Shown: positions 1 through 4,362 of the stretch, piece by piece
Numbering within the stretch: the first letter of the stretch is position 1
Layout of the letters: every line of letters starts with the position of its first letter
Source of the DNA: a virus
Lineage: Duplodnaviria; Heunggongvirae; Uroviricota; Caudoviricetes
DNA length: 7,002 bases
Direction: 5' to 3' (one strand)
IMG/VR virus record: IMGVR_UViG_2778261354_000001
Span: 1 to 7,002 of that record
Notes under the pieces: generated by a model
Told to the model about the DNA's origin: nothing
Database searches by the model: none
The model's input: only the letters and a program-made list of their open reading frames with translations
Translations under genes and position numbers: made by a program

Positions 1-50
1 CGAACTGCTCCCCTGGCGCGTAGCACTGCCGACTGAATAACACATCCCCG

Positions 51-77
51 TCAATACGGTTCTTGCTGCACGCTTAC
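51..77. repeat. Left copy of a bipartite inverted repeat: TCAATACGGTTCT (51-63), 7-nt spacer TGCTGCA (64-70), CGCTTAC (71-77)
   Basis: Read directly from the sequence. The reverse complement of 6926-6952 is TCAATACGGTTCT-GACGAGT-CGCTTAC, so 20 of 20 arm positions match and only the 7-nt spacer differs. The copy lies in apparently non-coding DNA upstream of the HNH gene. Confidence 0.8.
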
Positions 78-108
78 TTCTATAGTGTCCAGTAAATCAA
101 ACAGGAAA

Positions 109-130
109 CTTGTCCAACGTGTTGGACAAG
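109..130. promoter_or_regulatory. Perfect dyad symmetry element CTTGTCCAAC-GT-GTTGGACAAG (10-bp arms, 2-nt centre), a candidate operator or activator site upstream of the HNH/late gene block
   Basis: Read directly: 109-118 is the exact reverse complement of 121-130. It contains TGT(111-113)-N12-ACA(126-128). It sits about 120 nt upstream of the HNH start. No T-run follows, so it is not an intrinsic terminator. Confidence 0.45.
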
Positions 131-250
131 CCTCTCCATTAGTGAGTTGTATTGATCACAACTCTACAAAGAATTCATTACTGGGTAGATGAAAATAGTT
201 TCACTATGAATGGAGGAGGCTATGTCGGTGGCTTCTTCATTGGAGTACAT

Positions 251-748: not shown

Positions 749-1231
749 ATGTCTGGACCCCCGAAAACCCCGCCACGCCTGCATTTGATACGAGGTAACC
801 CCTCAAAGCGGCCAGTTAAAGACTCCAAAAAAACCGCTAAAAAGGATGAAAAAGGTCTCCCTAAAATTCCGCAACATTTAGGGGCGCAGGGGAAGTACTG
901 GTTCAGGCGAATGGCGGAAGAGCTGAATGCGGAAGGGATCATTTCTCAGCTCGATGCACGTGCGCTCGAGTTACTGGTGGAAGCCTACACCGAATACCGG
1001 CATCACTGCGAAATACTCGATGTTGAGGGTTATACCTACCGCACGGAAACGCAGAATGGCGATGTGCTGATCAAGGCACACCCGGCTGCTGCGATGAAGG
1101 CTGATGCCTGGAAGCGGATTCGGGCGATGCTTGCAGAGTTTGGTATGTCACCGGCAAGCCGGGCGAAAGTAAATACCGCCGGACCGGATGATGTTGATCC
1201 GCTGGCAGAGCTTTTAAAAGCGAGAGACTGA
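749..1231 (+). CDS. terS: Terminase small subunit, P27 family
   Basis: Track ORF 749..1231 (160 aa). It has a basic, Pro/Lys-rich N-terminus (MSGPPKTPPRLHLIRGNPSKRP...) followed by a helical region (GKYWFRRMAEELNAEGI...), which is characteristic of P27-type small terminases. Its TGA stop overlaps the terL ATG (TGATG at 1229-1233). Confidence 0.85.
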   Translation: MSGPPKTPPRLHLIRGNPSKRPVKDSKKTAKKDEKGLPKIPQHLGAQGKYWFRRMAEELNAEGIISQLDARALELLVEAYTEYRHHCEILDVEGYTYRTETQNGDVLIKAHPAAAMKADAWKRIRAMLAEFGMSPASRAKVNTAGPDDVDPLAELLKARD

Positions 1232-2988
1232 TGGCAAAAGTGGCTGACGGGATCCGCTACGCCGAACGTGTTGTTGCAGGAGAAATTGTTGCTGGCGAAT
1301 TTGTCCGTCTGGCCTGCCAGCGTTTTCTTGATGATCTGAAGTACGGCGAAGAGCGGGGGATTTATTTCAGTGAACCCCGTGCACAGCACATCCTTAATTT
1401 CTACAAATTTGTACCCCATGTGAAAGGGGCGCTGGCAGGTCAGCCCATTGAGTTGATGGACTGGCATGTGTTTATCCTCATTAATATTTTTGGTTTTGTC
1501 ATTCCGCTGGTGAATGAAGAAACCGGGGAAGTTGTCATGCGCAGCGATGGCAGTGGACGCCCGGTGATGGTGCGCCGGTTCCGGACAGCATACAACGAAG
1601 TTGCCCGTAAAAACGCAAAATCAACCCTGTCATCGGGTATCGGTCTGTATATGACGGGGGCAGATGGTGAAGGCGGGGCTGAGGTGTATTCAGCCGCAAC
1701 CACGCGTGACCAGGCCAGAATTGTGTTTGAAGACGCCAAAAATATGGTCAGAAAAGCCCGGTCGACACTCGGGCGGTTGTTTGATTTCAACAAGCTGGCG
1801 ATTTACCAGGAGCAGAGCGCATCAAAATTTGAACCGCTTTCCTCGGATGCAAACAACCTGGACGGTCTGAACATCCACTGCGCCATTATTGATGAGCTGC
1901 ATGCTCATAAAACCCGTGACGTGTGGGACGTTCTGGAAACGGCAACCGGTGCCCGTCTGCAGTCTCTGTTATTTGGCATCACCACGGCTGGCTTTAACAA
2001 GGAAGGGATTTGCTACGAGCAGCGCGATTACGCCATTAAGGTATTGCGAGGCTATAACAGCGACGTGGAGGGCGCGGTAAAAGACGACTCCTACTTTGCG
2101 ATCATTTACACGCTCGATGAGGGAGATGATCCGTTTGATGAAACGGTCTGGCAGAAAGCGAATCCTGGCCTGGGCATCTGTAAACGCTGGGATGATCTGC
2201 GTCGTCTGGCGAAAAAAGCGAAGGAGCAGGTCTCTGCGCGGGTGAATTTTTTTACCAAACACATGAATGTGTGGGTCACTGCCGAATCTGCCTGGATGGA
2301 TATGATTAAGTGGGAGAAGTGCGAATACATTGCTCCACAACATGAGCTGAAAACATATCCCATGTGGGTCGGCGTCGACCTTGCTCATAAGATTGATATC
2401 TGTGCGGCGGCAAAACTCTGGCGAACCGATAACGGACATGTTCATGCTGATTTTAAATTCTGGCTTCCGGAAGGACGGCTGGAACGATGCTCGCGGCAGC
2501 AGGCAGAACTTTACCGGAAGTGGGCGGAGATGGATAAGCTCATCCTGACGGATGGTGATGTTATCGATCATGCTCAGATAAAAAGTGACTTACTGGAATG
2601 GATTGGCGGTGAAAACCTCAGGGAACTGGGGTTTGACCCGTGGAGCGCAATGCAGTTCAGCCTGGCACTGGCTGAAGAAGGGATACCGCTGGTGGAGGTT
2701 CCGCAGACGGTCCGCAATCTGTCAGAGGCCATGAAGGAAACGGAATCACTGGTTTATGCCGGGCGTTTCCATCACAGCAATCATCCGGTCATGAACTGGA
2801 TGATGTCTAACGTTACTGTAAAACCGGACAAAAACGACAACATCTTCCCGAATAAATCCACGCCGGAAGCCAAAATCGACGGCCCTGTTGCGCTTTTTAC
2901 AGCCATGAGCCGCTTTCTGGTAAATGGCGGGGGCGTGAATGACTTTCTGTCCACGCTTGATCCTGATGAGGACCTGTTAATTCTGTGA
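1231..2988 (+). CDS. terL: Terminase large subunit (ATPase plus RNase H-like nuclease)
   Basis: Track ORF 1231..2988 (585 aa). The P-loop region is VARKNAKSTLSSGIGLY, Walker B is CAIIDELH, followed by GAEVYSAATTRDQARIVF; the C-terminal nuclease region contains VGVDLAHKID. The start is translationally coupled to terS. Confidence 0.95.
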   Translation: MAKVADGIRYAERVVAGEIVAGEFVRLACQRFLDDLKYGEERGIYFSEPRAQHILNFYKFVPHVKGALAGQPIELMDWHVFILINIFGFVIPLVNEETGEVVMRSDGSGRPVMVRRFRTAYNEVARKNAKSTLSSGIGLYMTGADGEGGAEVYSAATTRDQARIVFEDAKNMVRKARSTLGRLFDFNKLAIYQEQSASKFEPLSSDANNLDGLNIHCAIIDELHAHKTRDVWDVLETATGARLQSLLFGITTAGFNKEGICYEQRDYAIKVLRGYNSDVEGAVKDDSYFAIIYTLDEGDDPFDETVWQKANPGLGICKRWDDLRRLAKKAKEQVSARVNFFTKHMNVWVTAESAWMDMIKWEKCEYIAPQHELKTYPMWVGVDLAHKIDICAAAKLWRTDNGHVHADFKFWLPEGRLERCSRQQAELYRKWAEMDKLILTDGDVIDHAQIKSDLLEWIGGENLRELGFDPWSAMQFSLALAEEGIPLVEVPQTVRNLSEAMKETESLVYAGRFHHSNHPVMNWMMSNVTVKPDKNDNIFPNKSTPEAKIDGPVALFTAMSRFLVNGGGVNDFLSTLDPDEDLLIL

Positions 2989-3146
2989 AACAGCTTATTA
3001 CTGATATGACCGGGCTGATCGGTTTCGGTCTGCTCACTGCTGGCGTTTATCTGTATGCAGGTCTGCCAGCGTCTCTGATGCTGTCTGGCTGTTTGTTGCT
3101 GCTTTATGCACTGGTGGTGTCCATGAGGAGAAAACATGCTTCTTGA
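2985..3146 (+). CDS. Small hydrophobic protein (about 53 aa from GTG 2985, or about 46 aa from ATG 3006), predicted membrane protein, hypothetical
   Basis: Not in the ORF track. My own translation is (V/M)KQLITDMTGLIGFGLLTAGVYLYAGLPASLMLSGCLLLLYALVVSMRRKHAS*, with two hydrophobic stretches and a basic C-terminus. It is rich in CTG codons. The GTG start overlaps the terL stop (GTGA), and its stop at 3144-3146 overlaps the portal start at 3136. It fills the otherwise unexplained terL-portal gap. Confidence 0.4.
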   Translation: MKQLITDMTGLIGFGLLTAGVYLYAGLPASLMLSGCLLLLYALVVSMRRKHAS

Positions 3147-4362
3147 TGCTCTGTTTCGCAGTGAGCCTCTGGAAAATCCCTCGGTTCCGGTAACCGGAGA
3201 GGCTGCTGAGACGGATAATATTTTTGCCCGGGATGTGTATGTCAGTCCGGAAACATCCATGAAGCTGGCTGCTGTCTATGCCTGTATTTATGTTATTTCA
3301 TCCAGTGTGGCTCAGATGCCCCTGCATGTGATGCGAAAAACGAATGAGCATGTTCAGCCTGCACGCGATCATCCGTTGTTCTGGCTCGTTCATGATGAAC
3401 CGAATGCCTGGCAGACCAGCTATAAGTGGCGGGAACTGAAGCAGCGTCATGTGCTGGGGTGGGGCAATGGTTATACGTGGGTAAAACGTAATCGTCGTGG
3501 AGAGGTTACCAGCCTTGAATGCTGTATGCCATGGGAAACTACGTTACTTAACACCGGTGGGCGTCATACTTACGGGGTGTATAACGAAGAGGGTGCATTT
3601 GCGGTAAGTCCGGACGACATGATCCATATCAGGGCGCTGGGAAACAATCAGAAAATGGGACTGAGCCCGATCATGCAGCATGCTGAAACCATTGGTATGG
3701 GAATGAGTGGCCAGCAGTATACCAGCGCCTTTTTTAACGGTAATGCCCGTCCTGCCGGTATTATTTCTGTGAAAAATGAACTGAACGAACAAAGCTGGGG
3801 CAGGCTTAAAAATATGTGGCAGCGGGCGGTGACAGCGCTTCGCAGCCAGGAAAATAAAACCATGTTGCTGCCTGCGCAACTGGATTACCGCGCTCTGACA
3901 GTTTCTCCGGTGGATGCTCAGATCATTGATATGACCAAGCTGAACCGGTCGATGATTGCCGGGATTTTTAATGTCCCGGCGCACATGATTAATGACCTGG
4001 AAAAAGCCACATTTTCGAATATTACGCAGCAGGCGATTCAGTTTGTTCGCTACACGATGATGCCCTGGGTTGCGAACTGGGAGCAGGAGCTTAACCGTCG
4101 CCTGTTTACCCGTACAGAACGGGCTGCCGGGTATTACGTTCGTTTCAACCTCACGGGGTTGCTCCGTGGGACCCCACAGGAGCGTGCGCAGTTCTATCAC
4201 TTTGCCATTACAGATGGCTGGATGAGTCGGAATGAAGCCAGGGCATTTGAGGATATGAACCCGGTTGACGGTCTGGATGAAATGCTGGTCAGCGTAAATG
4301 CAGCAAATCCGTTGAATAACTTTAAAGATACGAAAGGCAAAGAGGAAAAGAACGATGAATGA
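3136..4362 (+). CDS. Portal protein, HK97 family
   Basis: Track ORF 3136..4362 (408 aa). Its size, position immediately after terL, and sequence character (e.g. ...NRSMIAGIFNVPAHMINDLEKATFSNITQQAIQFVRYTMMPW...) fit HK97-type portals. A GAGGAG at 3125-3130 lies 5 nt upstream of the ATG. Confidence 0.93.
   Translation: MLLDALFRSEPLENPSVPVTGEAAETDNIFARDVYVSPETSMKLAAVYACIYVISSSVAQMPLHVMRKTNEHVQPARDHPLFWLVHDEPNAWQTSYKWRELKQRHVLGWGNGYTWVKRNRRGEVTSLECCMPWETTLLNTGGRHTYGVYNEEGAFAVSPDDMIHIRALGNNQKMGLSPIMQHAETIGMGMSGQQYTSAFFNGNARPAGIISVKNELNEQSWGRLKNMWQRAVTALRSQENKTMLLPAQLDYRALTVSPVDAQIIDMTKLNRSMIAGIFNVPAHMINDLEKATFSNITQQAIQFVRYTMMPWVANWEQELNRRLFTRTERAAGYYVRFNLTGLLRGTPQERAQFYHFAITDGWMSRNEARAFEDMNPVDGLDEMLVSVNAANPLNNFKDTKGKEEKNDE

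What the first reader, a model, noticed from the sequence alone, without database searches (positions are those of the whole stretch)
2985..3146. Unlisted small hydrophobic ORF wedged between terL and the portal gene
A 46-53 aa ORF encoding two predicted transmembrane-like segments is translationally coupled to terL (GTGA overlap) and overlaps the portal start. It is missing from the six-frame track. Its codon usage looks genuine (many CTG, GGT, GCG codons). Small membrane proteins at exactly this position are known in some Gram-positive HK97-like phages. Its function is unknown.
Basis: partly seen in the sequence, partly recalled or inferred. Interest (0 to 1): 0.45.

Follow-up and report, generated by a model that had tools for sequence, protein, structure and literature searches.

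The report
Conserved tiny membrane protein between terminase and portal
The small ORF is a real, conserved 53-residue membrane-hairpin gene in the head-gene operon of an E. coli prophage; databases already list it as a hypothetical protein, and its function is untested, though its position suggests a link to the portal.

Summary
The ORF at 2985..3146 (+) exists as described. It has a GTG start inside the terL stop (GTGA), encodes 53 aa, and overlaps the portal ATG by 11 nt. It is a real gene. Orthologues of 52-53 aa occupy the same slot in Escherichia, Shigella (SfV), Morganella, Edwardsiella, Buttiauxella, Rouxiella and Ralstonia phages. Longer members of 60-67 aa occur in Vreelandella, Marinobacter and Vibrio. 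Pooled pN/pS is 0.40 with no stops in this frame; all five other frames carry stops. Within the E. coli clade there are 12 synonymous changes and 1 non-synonymous change.

AlphaFold predicts a helical hairpin, and Gly13/20/26/35 are conserved. The gene has no promoter or terminator of its own and no GC anomaly, so it belongs to the late operon and is not a moron.

It is not unlisted. RefSeq annotates it as WP_000811487.1, hypothetical protein, and it matches PHROG 7105, with weaker matches to PHROG 502 and 4810. Gram-positive phages carry analogous proteins at the same position (Sfi21 orf59c, Pfam DUF1056), but homology to them is not supported.

The gene follows the head module whatever the tail type. 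In phage phi467 the terminase tail, small gene and portal are replaced as one block. My preferred hypothesis, untested, is a portal- or packaging-linked inner-membrane factor. The gene is known but uncharacterised, so interest is modest.

The parts
2985..3146 (+). Gene X: a 53-aa inner-membrane helical-hairpin microprotein with a GTG start. It matches PHROG 7105 and is identical to RefSeq WP_000811487.1 in E. coli EC32.
   Evidence: ORF and translation; annotation; phrog_7105, E=9.4e-20; conservation and selection; AlphaFold hairpin.
2985..2988 (+). GTGA start/stop overlap between X and terL, read as a termination-reinitiation junction. No Shine-Dalgarno lies in the 12 nt upstream.
   Evidence: sequence. 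ATGA or GTGA in all 26 distinct loci examined, and the upstream 12-mers lack GGAG, GAGG and AGGA.
3006..3056 (+). Helix 1, about residues 8-24. It is Gly-rich and only marginally hydrophobic, and it carries the conserved Gly13 and Gly20, which are seven residues apart.
   Evidence: invariant or near-invariant glycines.
3060..3068 (+). Tight turn Gly26-Leu-Pro between the two helices. Gly26 is invariant in 63 sequences.
3069..3125 (+). Helix 2, about residues 29-47. It is strongly hydrophobic and carries the invariant Gly35.
   Evidence: Kyte-Doolittle 2.15-2.34.
3123..3146 (+). Basic C-terminal tail MRRKHAS. The same bases carry the portal Shine-Dalgarno (AGGAG at 3126-3130) and the portal start codon (ATG at 3136).
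   Evidence: A basic cluster also follows helix 2 in the Vreelandella and Marinobacter homologues, where the overlap with the portal gene differs.
1231..2988 (+). terL (TerL_ATPase plus TerL_nuclease). Its last 17 codons, about 2935-2985, co-segregate with X and the portal gene in recombinants.
   Evidence: (phi467 breakpoint).
3136..4362 (+). Portal gene (Phage_portal, PF04860).

Best explanation
X is a real late-operon gene for a 53-residue inner-membrane helical hairpin. Both short tails probably face the cytoplasm, and the C-tail is basic. It is probably made at low level by ribosomes that terminate on terL and restart at the overlapping GTG. The portal gene starts inside its last codons with its own strong Shine-Dalgarno.

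My preferred functional reading is an inference, not a demonstration. I propose that X is a portal- or packaging-associated membrane factor. It would tether or nucleate the portal, or the terminase-portal complex, at the inner membrane. It could do this directly through its short cytoplasmic tails, or indirectly, because co-translational insertion of X would hold the terL-X-portal mRNA at the membrane where the portal is then made. This would be functionally comparable to T4 gp40, which is needed for the membrane-bound gp20 portal initiator.

Shown here: the gene is real, it is under purifying selection, it is predicted to form a helical hairpin, its place in the operon is conserved, and it co-inherits with the portal. 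Inferred: membrane topology, low abundance, and any role in assembly or packaging.
For: Coding status:
- Pooled pN/pS is 0.40 with 0 stops in 12 diverged sequences. All five other frames carry stops. The adjacent terL and portal segments give 0.32 and 0.34.
- Within the E. coli clade there are 12 synonymous and 1 non-synonymous variants, binomial P=1.9e-6.

Breadth:
- A profile search found 94 clusters at 90% identity across Enterobacterales, Pasteurellaceae, Halomonadaceae, Marinobacter, Vibrio and Ralstonia.
- Wherever context was read, the order is HNH, TerS (Terminase_4), TerL, X, portal, S78 protease, capsid.

Part of the late operon, not a moron:
- No + strand promoter and no terminator in 2400-3500.
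- GC content and codon use match the flanking genes.
- Junction geometry is invariant.

Linked to the head module and the portal:
- X occurs with a lambda-like non-contractile tail in the window prophage and with a Mu-like contractile tail in SfV.
- In phi467 the terL body is 95% identical to the window up to about position 2930. The last 17 TerL residues, X and the portal are replaced together.
- The replacement X is of the PHROG 502 type, and the replacement portal is closer to PY54's than to the window's, the same pairing as in PY54.
- Unrelated 2-helix miniproteins occupy the same slot in Firmicute phages.

Precedent: assembly of the membrane-bound T4 portal initiator depends on gp40 (PMC9958956).
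Against: - No experiment or paper addresses this protein.
- HK97 itself and several related modules have terL and the portal gene abutting, with no room for X. These are Serratia Opt-148, Staphylococcus phiSa2wa, Pseudomonas BR322a, Acinetobacter AbIPP1, Burkholderia vB_E184 and Vibrio 1222. X is therefore not generally required for HK97-type assembly.
- Almost the whole protein is predicted to be buried in the bilayer. The tails are only about 7 residues each, which leaves little surface to bind a soluble portal.
- Co-inheritance with the portal can follow from physical linkage alone. One recombinant type does not prove co-adaptation.
- The terL-portal slot also hosts unrelated cargo, for example Phd/Doc in a Streptococcus suis phage.
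Confidence: 0.35

Rival explanations
1. X is a late-expressed membrane effector that acts on the host envelope rather than on the capsid. It could be a superinfection-exclusion or DNA-entry blocker that binds an inner-membrane component. It could also modulate another host membrane protein, as small inner-membrane phage proteins such as HK97 gp15 or T4 Imm do.
For: It is a small, almost fully membrane-embedded hairpin with conserved small residues suited to helix-helix packing within the bilayer. There is precedent for an inner-membrane exclusion protein encoded inside a morphogenesis operon: HK97 gp15 (PMC3594210). PHROG 502, a related family, carries the curators' label 'membrane protein' in the category 'moron, auxiliary metabolic gene and host takeover'. 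X is dispensable in many related head modules.
Against: X lacks the defining moron features. It has no promoter or terminator of its own and no GC difference (definition), so it should not be expressed from a repressed prophage. Its synteny is conserved across two proteobacterial classes, unlike typical exclusion genes. It follows the head module across non-contractile and contractile tails, whereas gp15-type exclusion depends on the tail of the incoming phage. It gives no PADLOC hit.
Confidence: 0.22
2. X is a lysis-timing accessory. It would be a pinholin-, antiholin- or holin-like hairpin that oligomerises in the inner membrane late in infection and affects membrane potential or holin triggering.
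For: It has two helices and a basic C-terminal tail, the general layout of class II holins. Helix 1 is Gly-rich and only marginally hydrophobic. From my own knowledge, this resembles the releasable first helix of the phage 21 pinholin. The conserved Gly13 and Gly20 are seven residues apart, and Gly35 is also conserved. Expression is late.
Against: The same prophage already encodes a complete lysis cassette elsewhere: a class II holin, a lysozyme and an Rz1 spanin. X has no match to any holin family in Pfam or NCBIfam. The lack of a Shine-Dalgarno and the reliance on reinitiation after the weakly expressed terL predict low copy number, whereas holins act at high copy. Its position and co-inheritance with the portal are not explained.
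Confidence: 0.12
3. The peptide itself has no function. The ORF persists only as a translated spacer that passes ribosomes from terL to the portal start, or as a by-product of constraints from the two overlapping genes.
For: Both ends overlap neighbouring genes. The C-terminal Arg-Arg or Arg-Gly codons double as the portal Shine-Dalgarno. HK97-type modules work without it.
Against: Only 4 nt at the 5' end and about 20 nt at the 3' end are shared with neighbouring signals. The analysed central 135 nt (codons 3-47; about 140 nt are free of overlap) still show pN/pS 0.40 and 12 synonymous against 1 non-synonymous changes. Specific residues (Asp7, Gly13, Gly20, Gly26, Gly35) and hairpin hydrophobicity are kept from about 50% GC E. 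coli to GC-rich Ralstonia. The portal has its own strong Shine-Dalgarno in an unstructured region (z=+1.67), so it does not obviously need coupling.
Confidence: 0.05
4. X is a minor virion or ejection protein. It would be packaged near the portal and inserted into the recipient's inner membrane during DNA delivery.
For: It is encoded among the head genes next to the portal gene and has hydrophobic character.
Against: There is no evidence that it is present in virions. A fully hydrophobic hairpin would need a chaperone to stay soluble in a capsid. It is found with very different tails.
Confidence: 0.05

Closest known systems
PHROG 7105 (unknown function), with the related PHROG 502 ('membrane protein') and PHROG 4810
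   Same: X matches phrog_7105 over its full length (1-52 of 52, E=9.4e-20). It matches phrog_502 (E=1.3e-6) and phrog_4810 (E=3e-4) in the same register. The SfV, Morganella, Ralstonia, Vibrio, Vreelandella and Marinobacter proteins at the same slot hit the same families.
   Different: These families carry no function, so membership names the protein but does not explain it. The 'moron' category attached to phrog_502 does not fit X's operon structure.
Pfam DUF1056 (PF06341), equivalent to PHROG 1142; example Streptococcus phage Sfi21 orf59c
   Same: It occupies the same slot between terL and the portal gene in an HK97-type head module. It is of similar size (53-59 aa) and has two hydrophobic helices. 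It is also uncharacterised.
   Different: No sequence relationship can be shown. X gives no Pfam hit and hhalign probability is 2.4%. The junctions are not overlapping in Sfi21: gaps of 3 and 17 nt.
Bacteriophage T4 gp40 (portal-initiator assembly factor at the inner membrane)
   Same: [quoted passage not shown]
   Different: There is no sequence evidence. From my own knowledge, T4 gene 40 is not adjacent to the portal gene. Membrane-bound prohead initiation has not been described for HK97-like phages. This is a resemblance in proposed mechanism only.
Phage lambda gpW (head completion protein encoded between A/terL and B/portal)
   Same: From my own knowledge, it is a small protein (68 aa) encoded at the same position between the large terminase and portal genes. 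Some database entries label DUF1056 proteins 'head-tail joining protein', presumably by this positional analogy.
   Different: From my own knowledge, gpW is a soluble alpha/beta protein. X is a hydrophobic hairpin with no Pfam match, including to the gpW family.
HK97 gp15 (moron-encoded inner-membrane superinfection exclusion protein)
   Same: It is a small inner-membrane phage protein encoded within a morphogenesis operon (PMC3594210).
   Different: gp15 is an independent transcription unit with its own promoter and terminator and deviant GC content. It is expressed from the prophage and lies in the tail operon. X has none of these features and lies in the head module.

Membership tests
PHROG 7105 | Significant full-length match to the family profile | tested here: met
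   E=9.4e-20, residues 1-52 against profile positions 1-52 of 52. Orthologues score E=1e-13 to 1e-23.
PHROG 7105 | Phage or prophage context shared with other members. This is my own criterion: the slot between terL and the portal gene. | tested here: met
   Same slot in SfV, IME1369_02, EPP-1, Ralstonia YO190_1, Vibrio K308, and the Vreelandella and Marinobacter prophages.
PHROG 502 ('membrane protein') | Significant match to the family profile | tested here: inconclusive
   E=1.3e-6 over residues 4-50, but weaker than phrog_7105. True phrog_502 members (PY54 X, E=1.7e-17; phi467 X) show no BLASTP similarity to X. Compositional bias of hydrophobic hairpins cannot be excluded.
Pfam DUF1056 (PF06341) | Score at or above the Pfam gathering threshold (22.2 bits) | tested here: not met
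   No Pfam hit for X at E<=0.1, nor at E<=1 for three homologues at the same slot (Vibrio K308, Ralstonia YO190_1, Vreelandella). Sfi21 orf59c scores 39.5 bits.
Pfam DUF1056 (PF06341) | Profile-profile homology | tested here: not met
   hhalign of A3 (63 sequences) against A4 (12 sequences): probability 2.4%, 17 aligned columns. The DUF1056 alignment had low diversity.
Moron (independent accessory transcription unit) | Own promoter and terminator | tested here: not met
   No + strand sigma-70-like promoter and no terminator-like site in 2400-3500. Both ends overlap neighbouring genes. Definition from PMC3594210. This was a consensus scan only.
Moron (independent accessory transcription unit) | GC content differs from surrounding genes | tested here: not met
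   GC is 0.49-0.52 across X against 0.47-0.58 in the flanks. GC3 and Leu codon use match terL and the portal gene.
Holin (class II / pinholin) | Match to a holin family profile | tested here: not met
   No Pfam or NCBIfam hit to any holin family. The prophage has a separate class II holin gene.
Holin (class II / pinholin) | Location in a lysis cassette next to an endolysin | tested here: not met
   X lies between terL and the portal gene. The lysis cassette lies about 3.6-5.2 kb upstream in strain EC32.
Holin (class II / pinholin) | Membrane permeabilisation or lysis triggering | not testable with these tools
   This requires expression and lysis assays.
Lambda gpW-like head completion protein | Sequence or fold of gpW (soluble alpha/beta) | tested here: not met
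   No Pfam match. The predicted fold is an all-helical hydrophobic hairpin.
T4 gp40-like portal assembly factor (functional class) | Required for membrane-associated portal or prohead initiation | not testable with these tools
   Only genomic linkage to the portal is available.

The most novel reading that the evidence does not exclude
The last 17 residues of TerL, X and the portal would form a co-adapted unit. Small membrane hairpins at this slot (PHROG 7105, 502 and 1142/DUF1056) would be a widespread, overlooked component of HK97-type packaging modules. They would tie portal or prohead initiation, or DNA packaging, to the cytoplasmic membrane, in proteobacterial and possibly Firmicute phages. 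That would extend the T4 gp40 paradigm to small temperate phages. Two such cassettes are each present in roughly a tenth to a quarter of complete E. coli genomes.
Probability: 0.25. Interest if true: 0.6.

Novelty: already known. Interest (0 to 1): 0.3.

Why it matters
The gene is not new. It is annotated as a hypothetical protein in E. coli RefSeq records that carry it and belongs to an existing PHROG family.

The modest value lies in the comparative picture. A tiny membrane hairpin sits between the large terminase and portal genes, is under purifying selection, and is conserved from E. coli to Ralstonia. The window type covers at least 80% of the query in 630 of 5426 complete E. coli genomes. 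An alternative type is found in 1384. Unrelated look-alikes occupy the same place in Gram-positive phages.

If the protein does link portal or packaging functions to the membrane, it would add an unrecognised component to one of the best-studied virus assembly systems. If it is instead a late membrane effector, it would be one more small phage membrane protein.

The work also exposes annotation gaps. The ORF is missing, and the portal start probably misplaced, in the reference SfV genome. The equivalent ORFs are missing in PY54 and phIS3501.

Tried and rejected
- Literature: searches for the accession, the PHROG id, DUF1056, Sfi21 orf59 and descriptive phrases found no functional study.
- Pfam, NCBIfam and PADLOC gave no meaningful hit for X.
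- PDB sequence search with the family profile gave 0 hits at E<=1.
- Foldseek against BFVD returned only uncharacterised helical hairpins, none at E<=0.001. This is uninformative for a 53-residue hairpin.
- Homology to DUF1056 was rejected by hhalign at 2.4%. Weak HMMER cross-hits of single family members to phrog_1142 probably reflect hydrophobic composition.
- RNA-element explanations were rejected. Rfam gave no hit in the window. Neither junction folds better than shuffled sequence: z=-0.20 at the terL/X junction and z=+1.67 at the X/portal junction.
- The 159-aa antisense ORF at 2781..3260 (-) was rejected as coding. All three minus-strand frames carry stops across the X region in relatives: 11, 13 and 39 stops in 12 sequences. 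SfV has no equivalent ORF.
- The alternative 46-aa start (ATG at 3006) was rejected because the seven upstream codons are conserved and begin with ATG in relatives.
- The genome-contig scan returned only 3 loci because a single stringent peptide pattern was used. The single-sequence word-based protein search found only close relatives.
Full report
**1. The observation**

The window is part of an E. coli lambdoid prophage. Positions 2700-3500 are 100% identical to E. coli EC32, and 929 of 5426 complete E. coli genomes give a match. Of these, 630 have a match covering at least 80% of the query. The same segment is 99% identical to phages such as PhiR49_2 and Evi.

The gene order in EC32 is HNH endonuclease, P27-family small terminase, large terminase, a 162-nt 'hypothetical protein', portal, HK97-family prohead protease, major capsid protein and head-tail connector. 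A lambda-like non-contractile tail module follows.

The ORF in question is at 2985..3146 on the + strand, with a GTG start and 53 codons. Its GTG shares bases with the terL stop codon (GTGA). The portal ATG at 3136 lies 11 nt before its own stop. The description is therefore correct.

The ORF is not unlisted. RefSeq annotates it as WP_000811487.1, and GenBank phage records annotate it too.

**2. Is it a gene?**

An ORF of this length is not remarkable by itself. The window has 59 ORFs of at least 30 aa. The evidence comes from comparison.

*Diverged orthologues.* Orthologues of 52-53 aa sit at the same place in several phages and prophages:
- Shigella phage SfV, Morganella phage IME1369_02 and Edwardsiella phage EPP-1, at 49-55% identity.
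- Buttiauxella, Rouxiella and Edwardsiella prophages.
- Ralstonia phage YO190_1.
- Longer relatives of 60-67 aa in Vreelandella, Marinobacter and Vibrio.

*Family size.* A profile search returned 94 clusters at 90% identity. They span Enterobacterales, Pasteurellaceae, Halomonadaceae, Marinobacter, Vibrio and Ralstonia. All are unnamed or called 'membrane protein'. An exhaustive HMMER search with the single sequence found 20 representatives at E<=0.001.

*Junction geometry.* I examined 26 distinct loci. The 4-nt ATGA or GTGA overlap with the terL stop is invariant. The 11-nt overlap with the portal start was seen in all 17 loci where my start-recognition pattern found the portal start.

*Selection between diverged sequences.* I used codons 3-47, which exclude both overlaps, in 12 diverged sequences.

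| Region or frame | pooled pN/pS | stops in 12 sequences |
|---|---|---|
| X frame | 0.40 | 0 |
| Five other frames | 0.48-1.93 | 5-39 each |
| Adjacent terL tail | 0.32 | n/a |
| Adjacent portal N-terminus | 0.34 | n/a |

Pairwise dN/dS values range from 0.08 to 0.52.

*Selection within the E. coli clade.* Sixty-seven loci give 12 haplotypes, with 12 synonymous variants and 1 non-synonymous variant (M32I). With 72% of sites non-synonymous, the binomial probability is 1.9e-6.

It is negative within this lineage. A few rare E. coli length variants exist as singleton clusters and are probably errors or pseudogenes. The conserved MKxLxxD N-terminus settles the start at 2985 rather than at the ATG at 3006.

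**3. What the protein looks like**

AlphaFold2, run on a 63-sequence alignment, gives two helices (2-25 and 27-52) forming a hairpin. Mean pLDDT is 85.7 for the best model; the other four models score 63-77.

Kyte-Doolittle hydropathy is high for the second helix, at 2.15-2.34 for residues 29-47. It is marginal for the first, Gly-rich helix, with a maximum of 1.55-1.72.

Gly26 (the turn) and Gly35 are invariant in 63 sequences. Asp7, Leu11, Gly13, Gly20, Leu23 and Leu31 are at least 90% conserved. Gly13 and Gly20 are seven residues apart, on one helix face. This suggests tight helix packing.

The C-tail is basic (MRRKHAS). Part of that is imposed by dual coding, because AGGAG or AGGGGG is the portal Shine-Dalgarno. 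A basic cluster also follows helix 2 in the Vreelandella and Marinobacter proteins, where the overlap differs. By the positive-inside rule I infer that both termini are cytoplasmic and that the periplasmic turn is very short. This topology is inferred, not shown.

**4. Expression logic**

No + strand promoter-like or terminator-like site is found in 2400-3500. GC content, GC3 and Leu codon use match the flanking genes. No Rfam family matches. Neither junction is unusually structured.

The 12 nt before the start lack any Shine-Dalgarno core in all representatives. The portal start has a strong one at the right spacing.

I infer that X is translated mainly by reinitiation of ribosomes finishing terL, and so at or below TerL level. 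The portal initiates independently. X therefore fails the definition of a moron, which requires its own promoter and terminator and a deviant GC content (PMC3594210).

**5. What it travels with**

X is present with a lambda-like siphovirus tail in the window prophage and with a Mu-like contractile tail in SfV. It therefore follows the head and packaging module, not the tail.

About 300 E. coli genomes, and phages phi467 and vB_EcoM-606R7, match the query only up to window position about 2930. In phi467:
- TerL is the same protein until its last 17 residues.
- After that come a different C-tail, a different 60-aa two-helix ORF and a different portal. That portal is 28% identical to the window's and 35% identical to PY54's.
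- The replacement small ORF is 53% identical to an unannotated ORF at the same slot in Yersinia phage PY54. The PY54 ORF is a PHROG 502 member. The replacement ORF has no BLASTP similarity to X.

The TerL C-tail, the small membrane protein and the portal are thus exchanged as one block. The type of small protein matches the type of portal. This alternative cassette is in 1384 of 5426 E. coli genomes.

From my own knowledge, the C-terminus of lambda gpA is the prohead-binding region. That makes co-inheritance of the tail with the portal sensible. Co-inheritance of X may reflect function or only linkage.

**6. Where it is absent, and look-alikes**

HK97 itself has terL and the portal gene abutting. 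So do Serratia Opt-148, Staphylococcus phiSa2wa, Pseudomonas BR322a, Acinetobacter AbIPP1, Burkholderia vB_E184 and Vibrio 1222. X is therefore not a universal requirement.

In Firmicute phages the same slot holds Sfi21 orf59c, a 59-aa two-helix protein in Pfam DUF1056 and PHROG 1142. Bacillus phage phIS3501 has an unannotated 53-aa ORF that also hits PHROG 1142.

Homology to X is not supported. X gives no Pfam hit, and hhalign probability is 2.4%. Note that the DUF1056 alignment I could build had little diversity. DUF1056 is itself uncharacterised.

A Streptococcus suis phage carries a Phd/Doc pair in this slot, so unrelated cargo can also be inserted there.

**7. Mechanism**

What is shown: a conserved, selected, late-operon microprotein predicted to form a membrane hairpin, inherited together with the portal.

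What I infer as most likely (confidence 0.35): a portal- or packaging-linked membrane factor. It would tether or nucleate the portal or the terminase-portal complex at the inner membrane. Alternatively, it would localise the terL-X-portal mRNA there through co-translational insertion. This is analogous in role to T4 gp40 (PMC9958956).

Main weaknesses of this model:
- X is absent from HK97.
- The cytoplasmic tails are tiny.
- Linkage alone can explain the co-inheritance.

Rivals:
- A late membrane effector such as a superinfection-exclusion protein (0.22). It is weakened by the non-moron architecture and by independence from tail type.
- A lysis-timing accessory (0.12). It is weakened by a complete separate lysis cassette, the lack of holin-family matches and the predicted low expression.
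- A functionless translated spacer (0.05). It is contradicted by selection on the peptide.
- A minor virion protein (0.05).

The remaining probability is for functions not considered here.

**8. Verdict**

However, the gene is already annotated and already sits in a PHROG family of unknown function. It is an ordinary 'conserved hypothetical' with an interesting genomic position. Novelty: already known. Interest: 0.3. There is a speculative upside if the portal link proves functional.

Noticed in passing
L003 (SfV NC_003444) 2289..2450 and 2392..3666: The SfV reference genome does not annotate the X orthologue, a 53-aa ORF with an ATG start. Its portal CDS is annotated from a GTG at 2392. That start lies 48 nt upstream of the conserved start at 2440 (VLLDALFRS...), so the annotated portal N-terminus runs through X in another frame. 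This is probably a mis-annotated start.
   Followed up: partly
L098 (Yersinia phage PY54) 2295..2492; L104 (Bacillus phage phIS3501) 2218..2379: Both records have unannotated two-helix ORFs (65 aa and 53 aa) in the 'intergenic' gap between terL and the portal gene. The PY54 ORF hits phrog_502 (E=1.7e-17). The phIS3501 ORF hits phrog_1142, which corresponds to DUF1056 (E=8e-15).
   Followed up: yes
window ~2935..2985 versus L106 (phage phi467) 2230..2289: There is a mosaic breakpoint inside terL. The last 17 TerL residues differ completely between otherwise 95%-identical terL genes. They switch together with the small ORF and the portal. The alternative cassette is found in 1384 of 5426 complete E. 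coli genomes.
   Followed up: partly
L092 (Streptococcus suis phage phiSC070807) 1316..2437: The terL-portal slot here holds a Phd-like antitoxin and a Doc toxin plus a 114-aa soluble hypothetical protein, not a membrane miniprotein. This slot also accepts accessory cargo.
   Followed up: no
window 2781..3260 (-): A 159-aa antisense ORF spans the terL end, X and the portal start. It is not conserved: the minus-strand frames carry 11-39 stops across this region in 12 relatives. It is best read as a chance ORF.
   Followed up: yes
L070 (IMGVR_UViG_2778261163_000008) 1..243: In one E. coli-type locus, sequence identity to the window begins only at codon 5 of X and the upstream sequence is unrelated. 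It may be a rearrangement, an insertion or a prophage decay boundary inside the terL/X junction.
   Followed up: no
P0005, P0006, P0010, P0011, P0012 (E. coli protein clusters): Rare length variants of X (48-83 aa) are identical to X over the first 33-50 residues and then diverge. Each cluster has 1-3 members. They look like frameshifts near the portal overlap, from either decaying prophages or assembly errors.
   Followed up: no
L001 (E. coli EC32) 2733..3026, about 280-570 nt upstream of the window start: The prophage carries iss (increased serum survival lipoprotein) on the opposite strand, between the lysis cassette and the HNH/terminase genes. This is a typical virulence-associated moron.
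   Followed up: no
source names for DUF1056 proteins: Different sources label DUF1056 proteins 'phage tail protein', 'putative head-tail joining protein', 'scaffold protein' and even 'polyferredoxin'. These names are mutually inconsistent and appear to be positional or spurious transfers.
   Followed up: no
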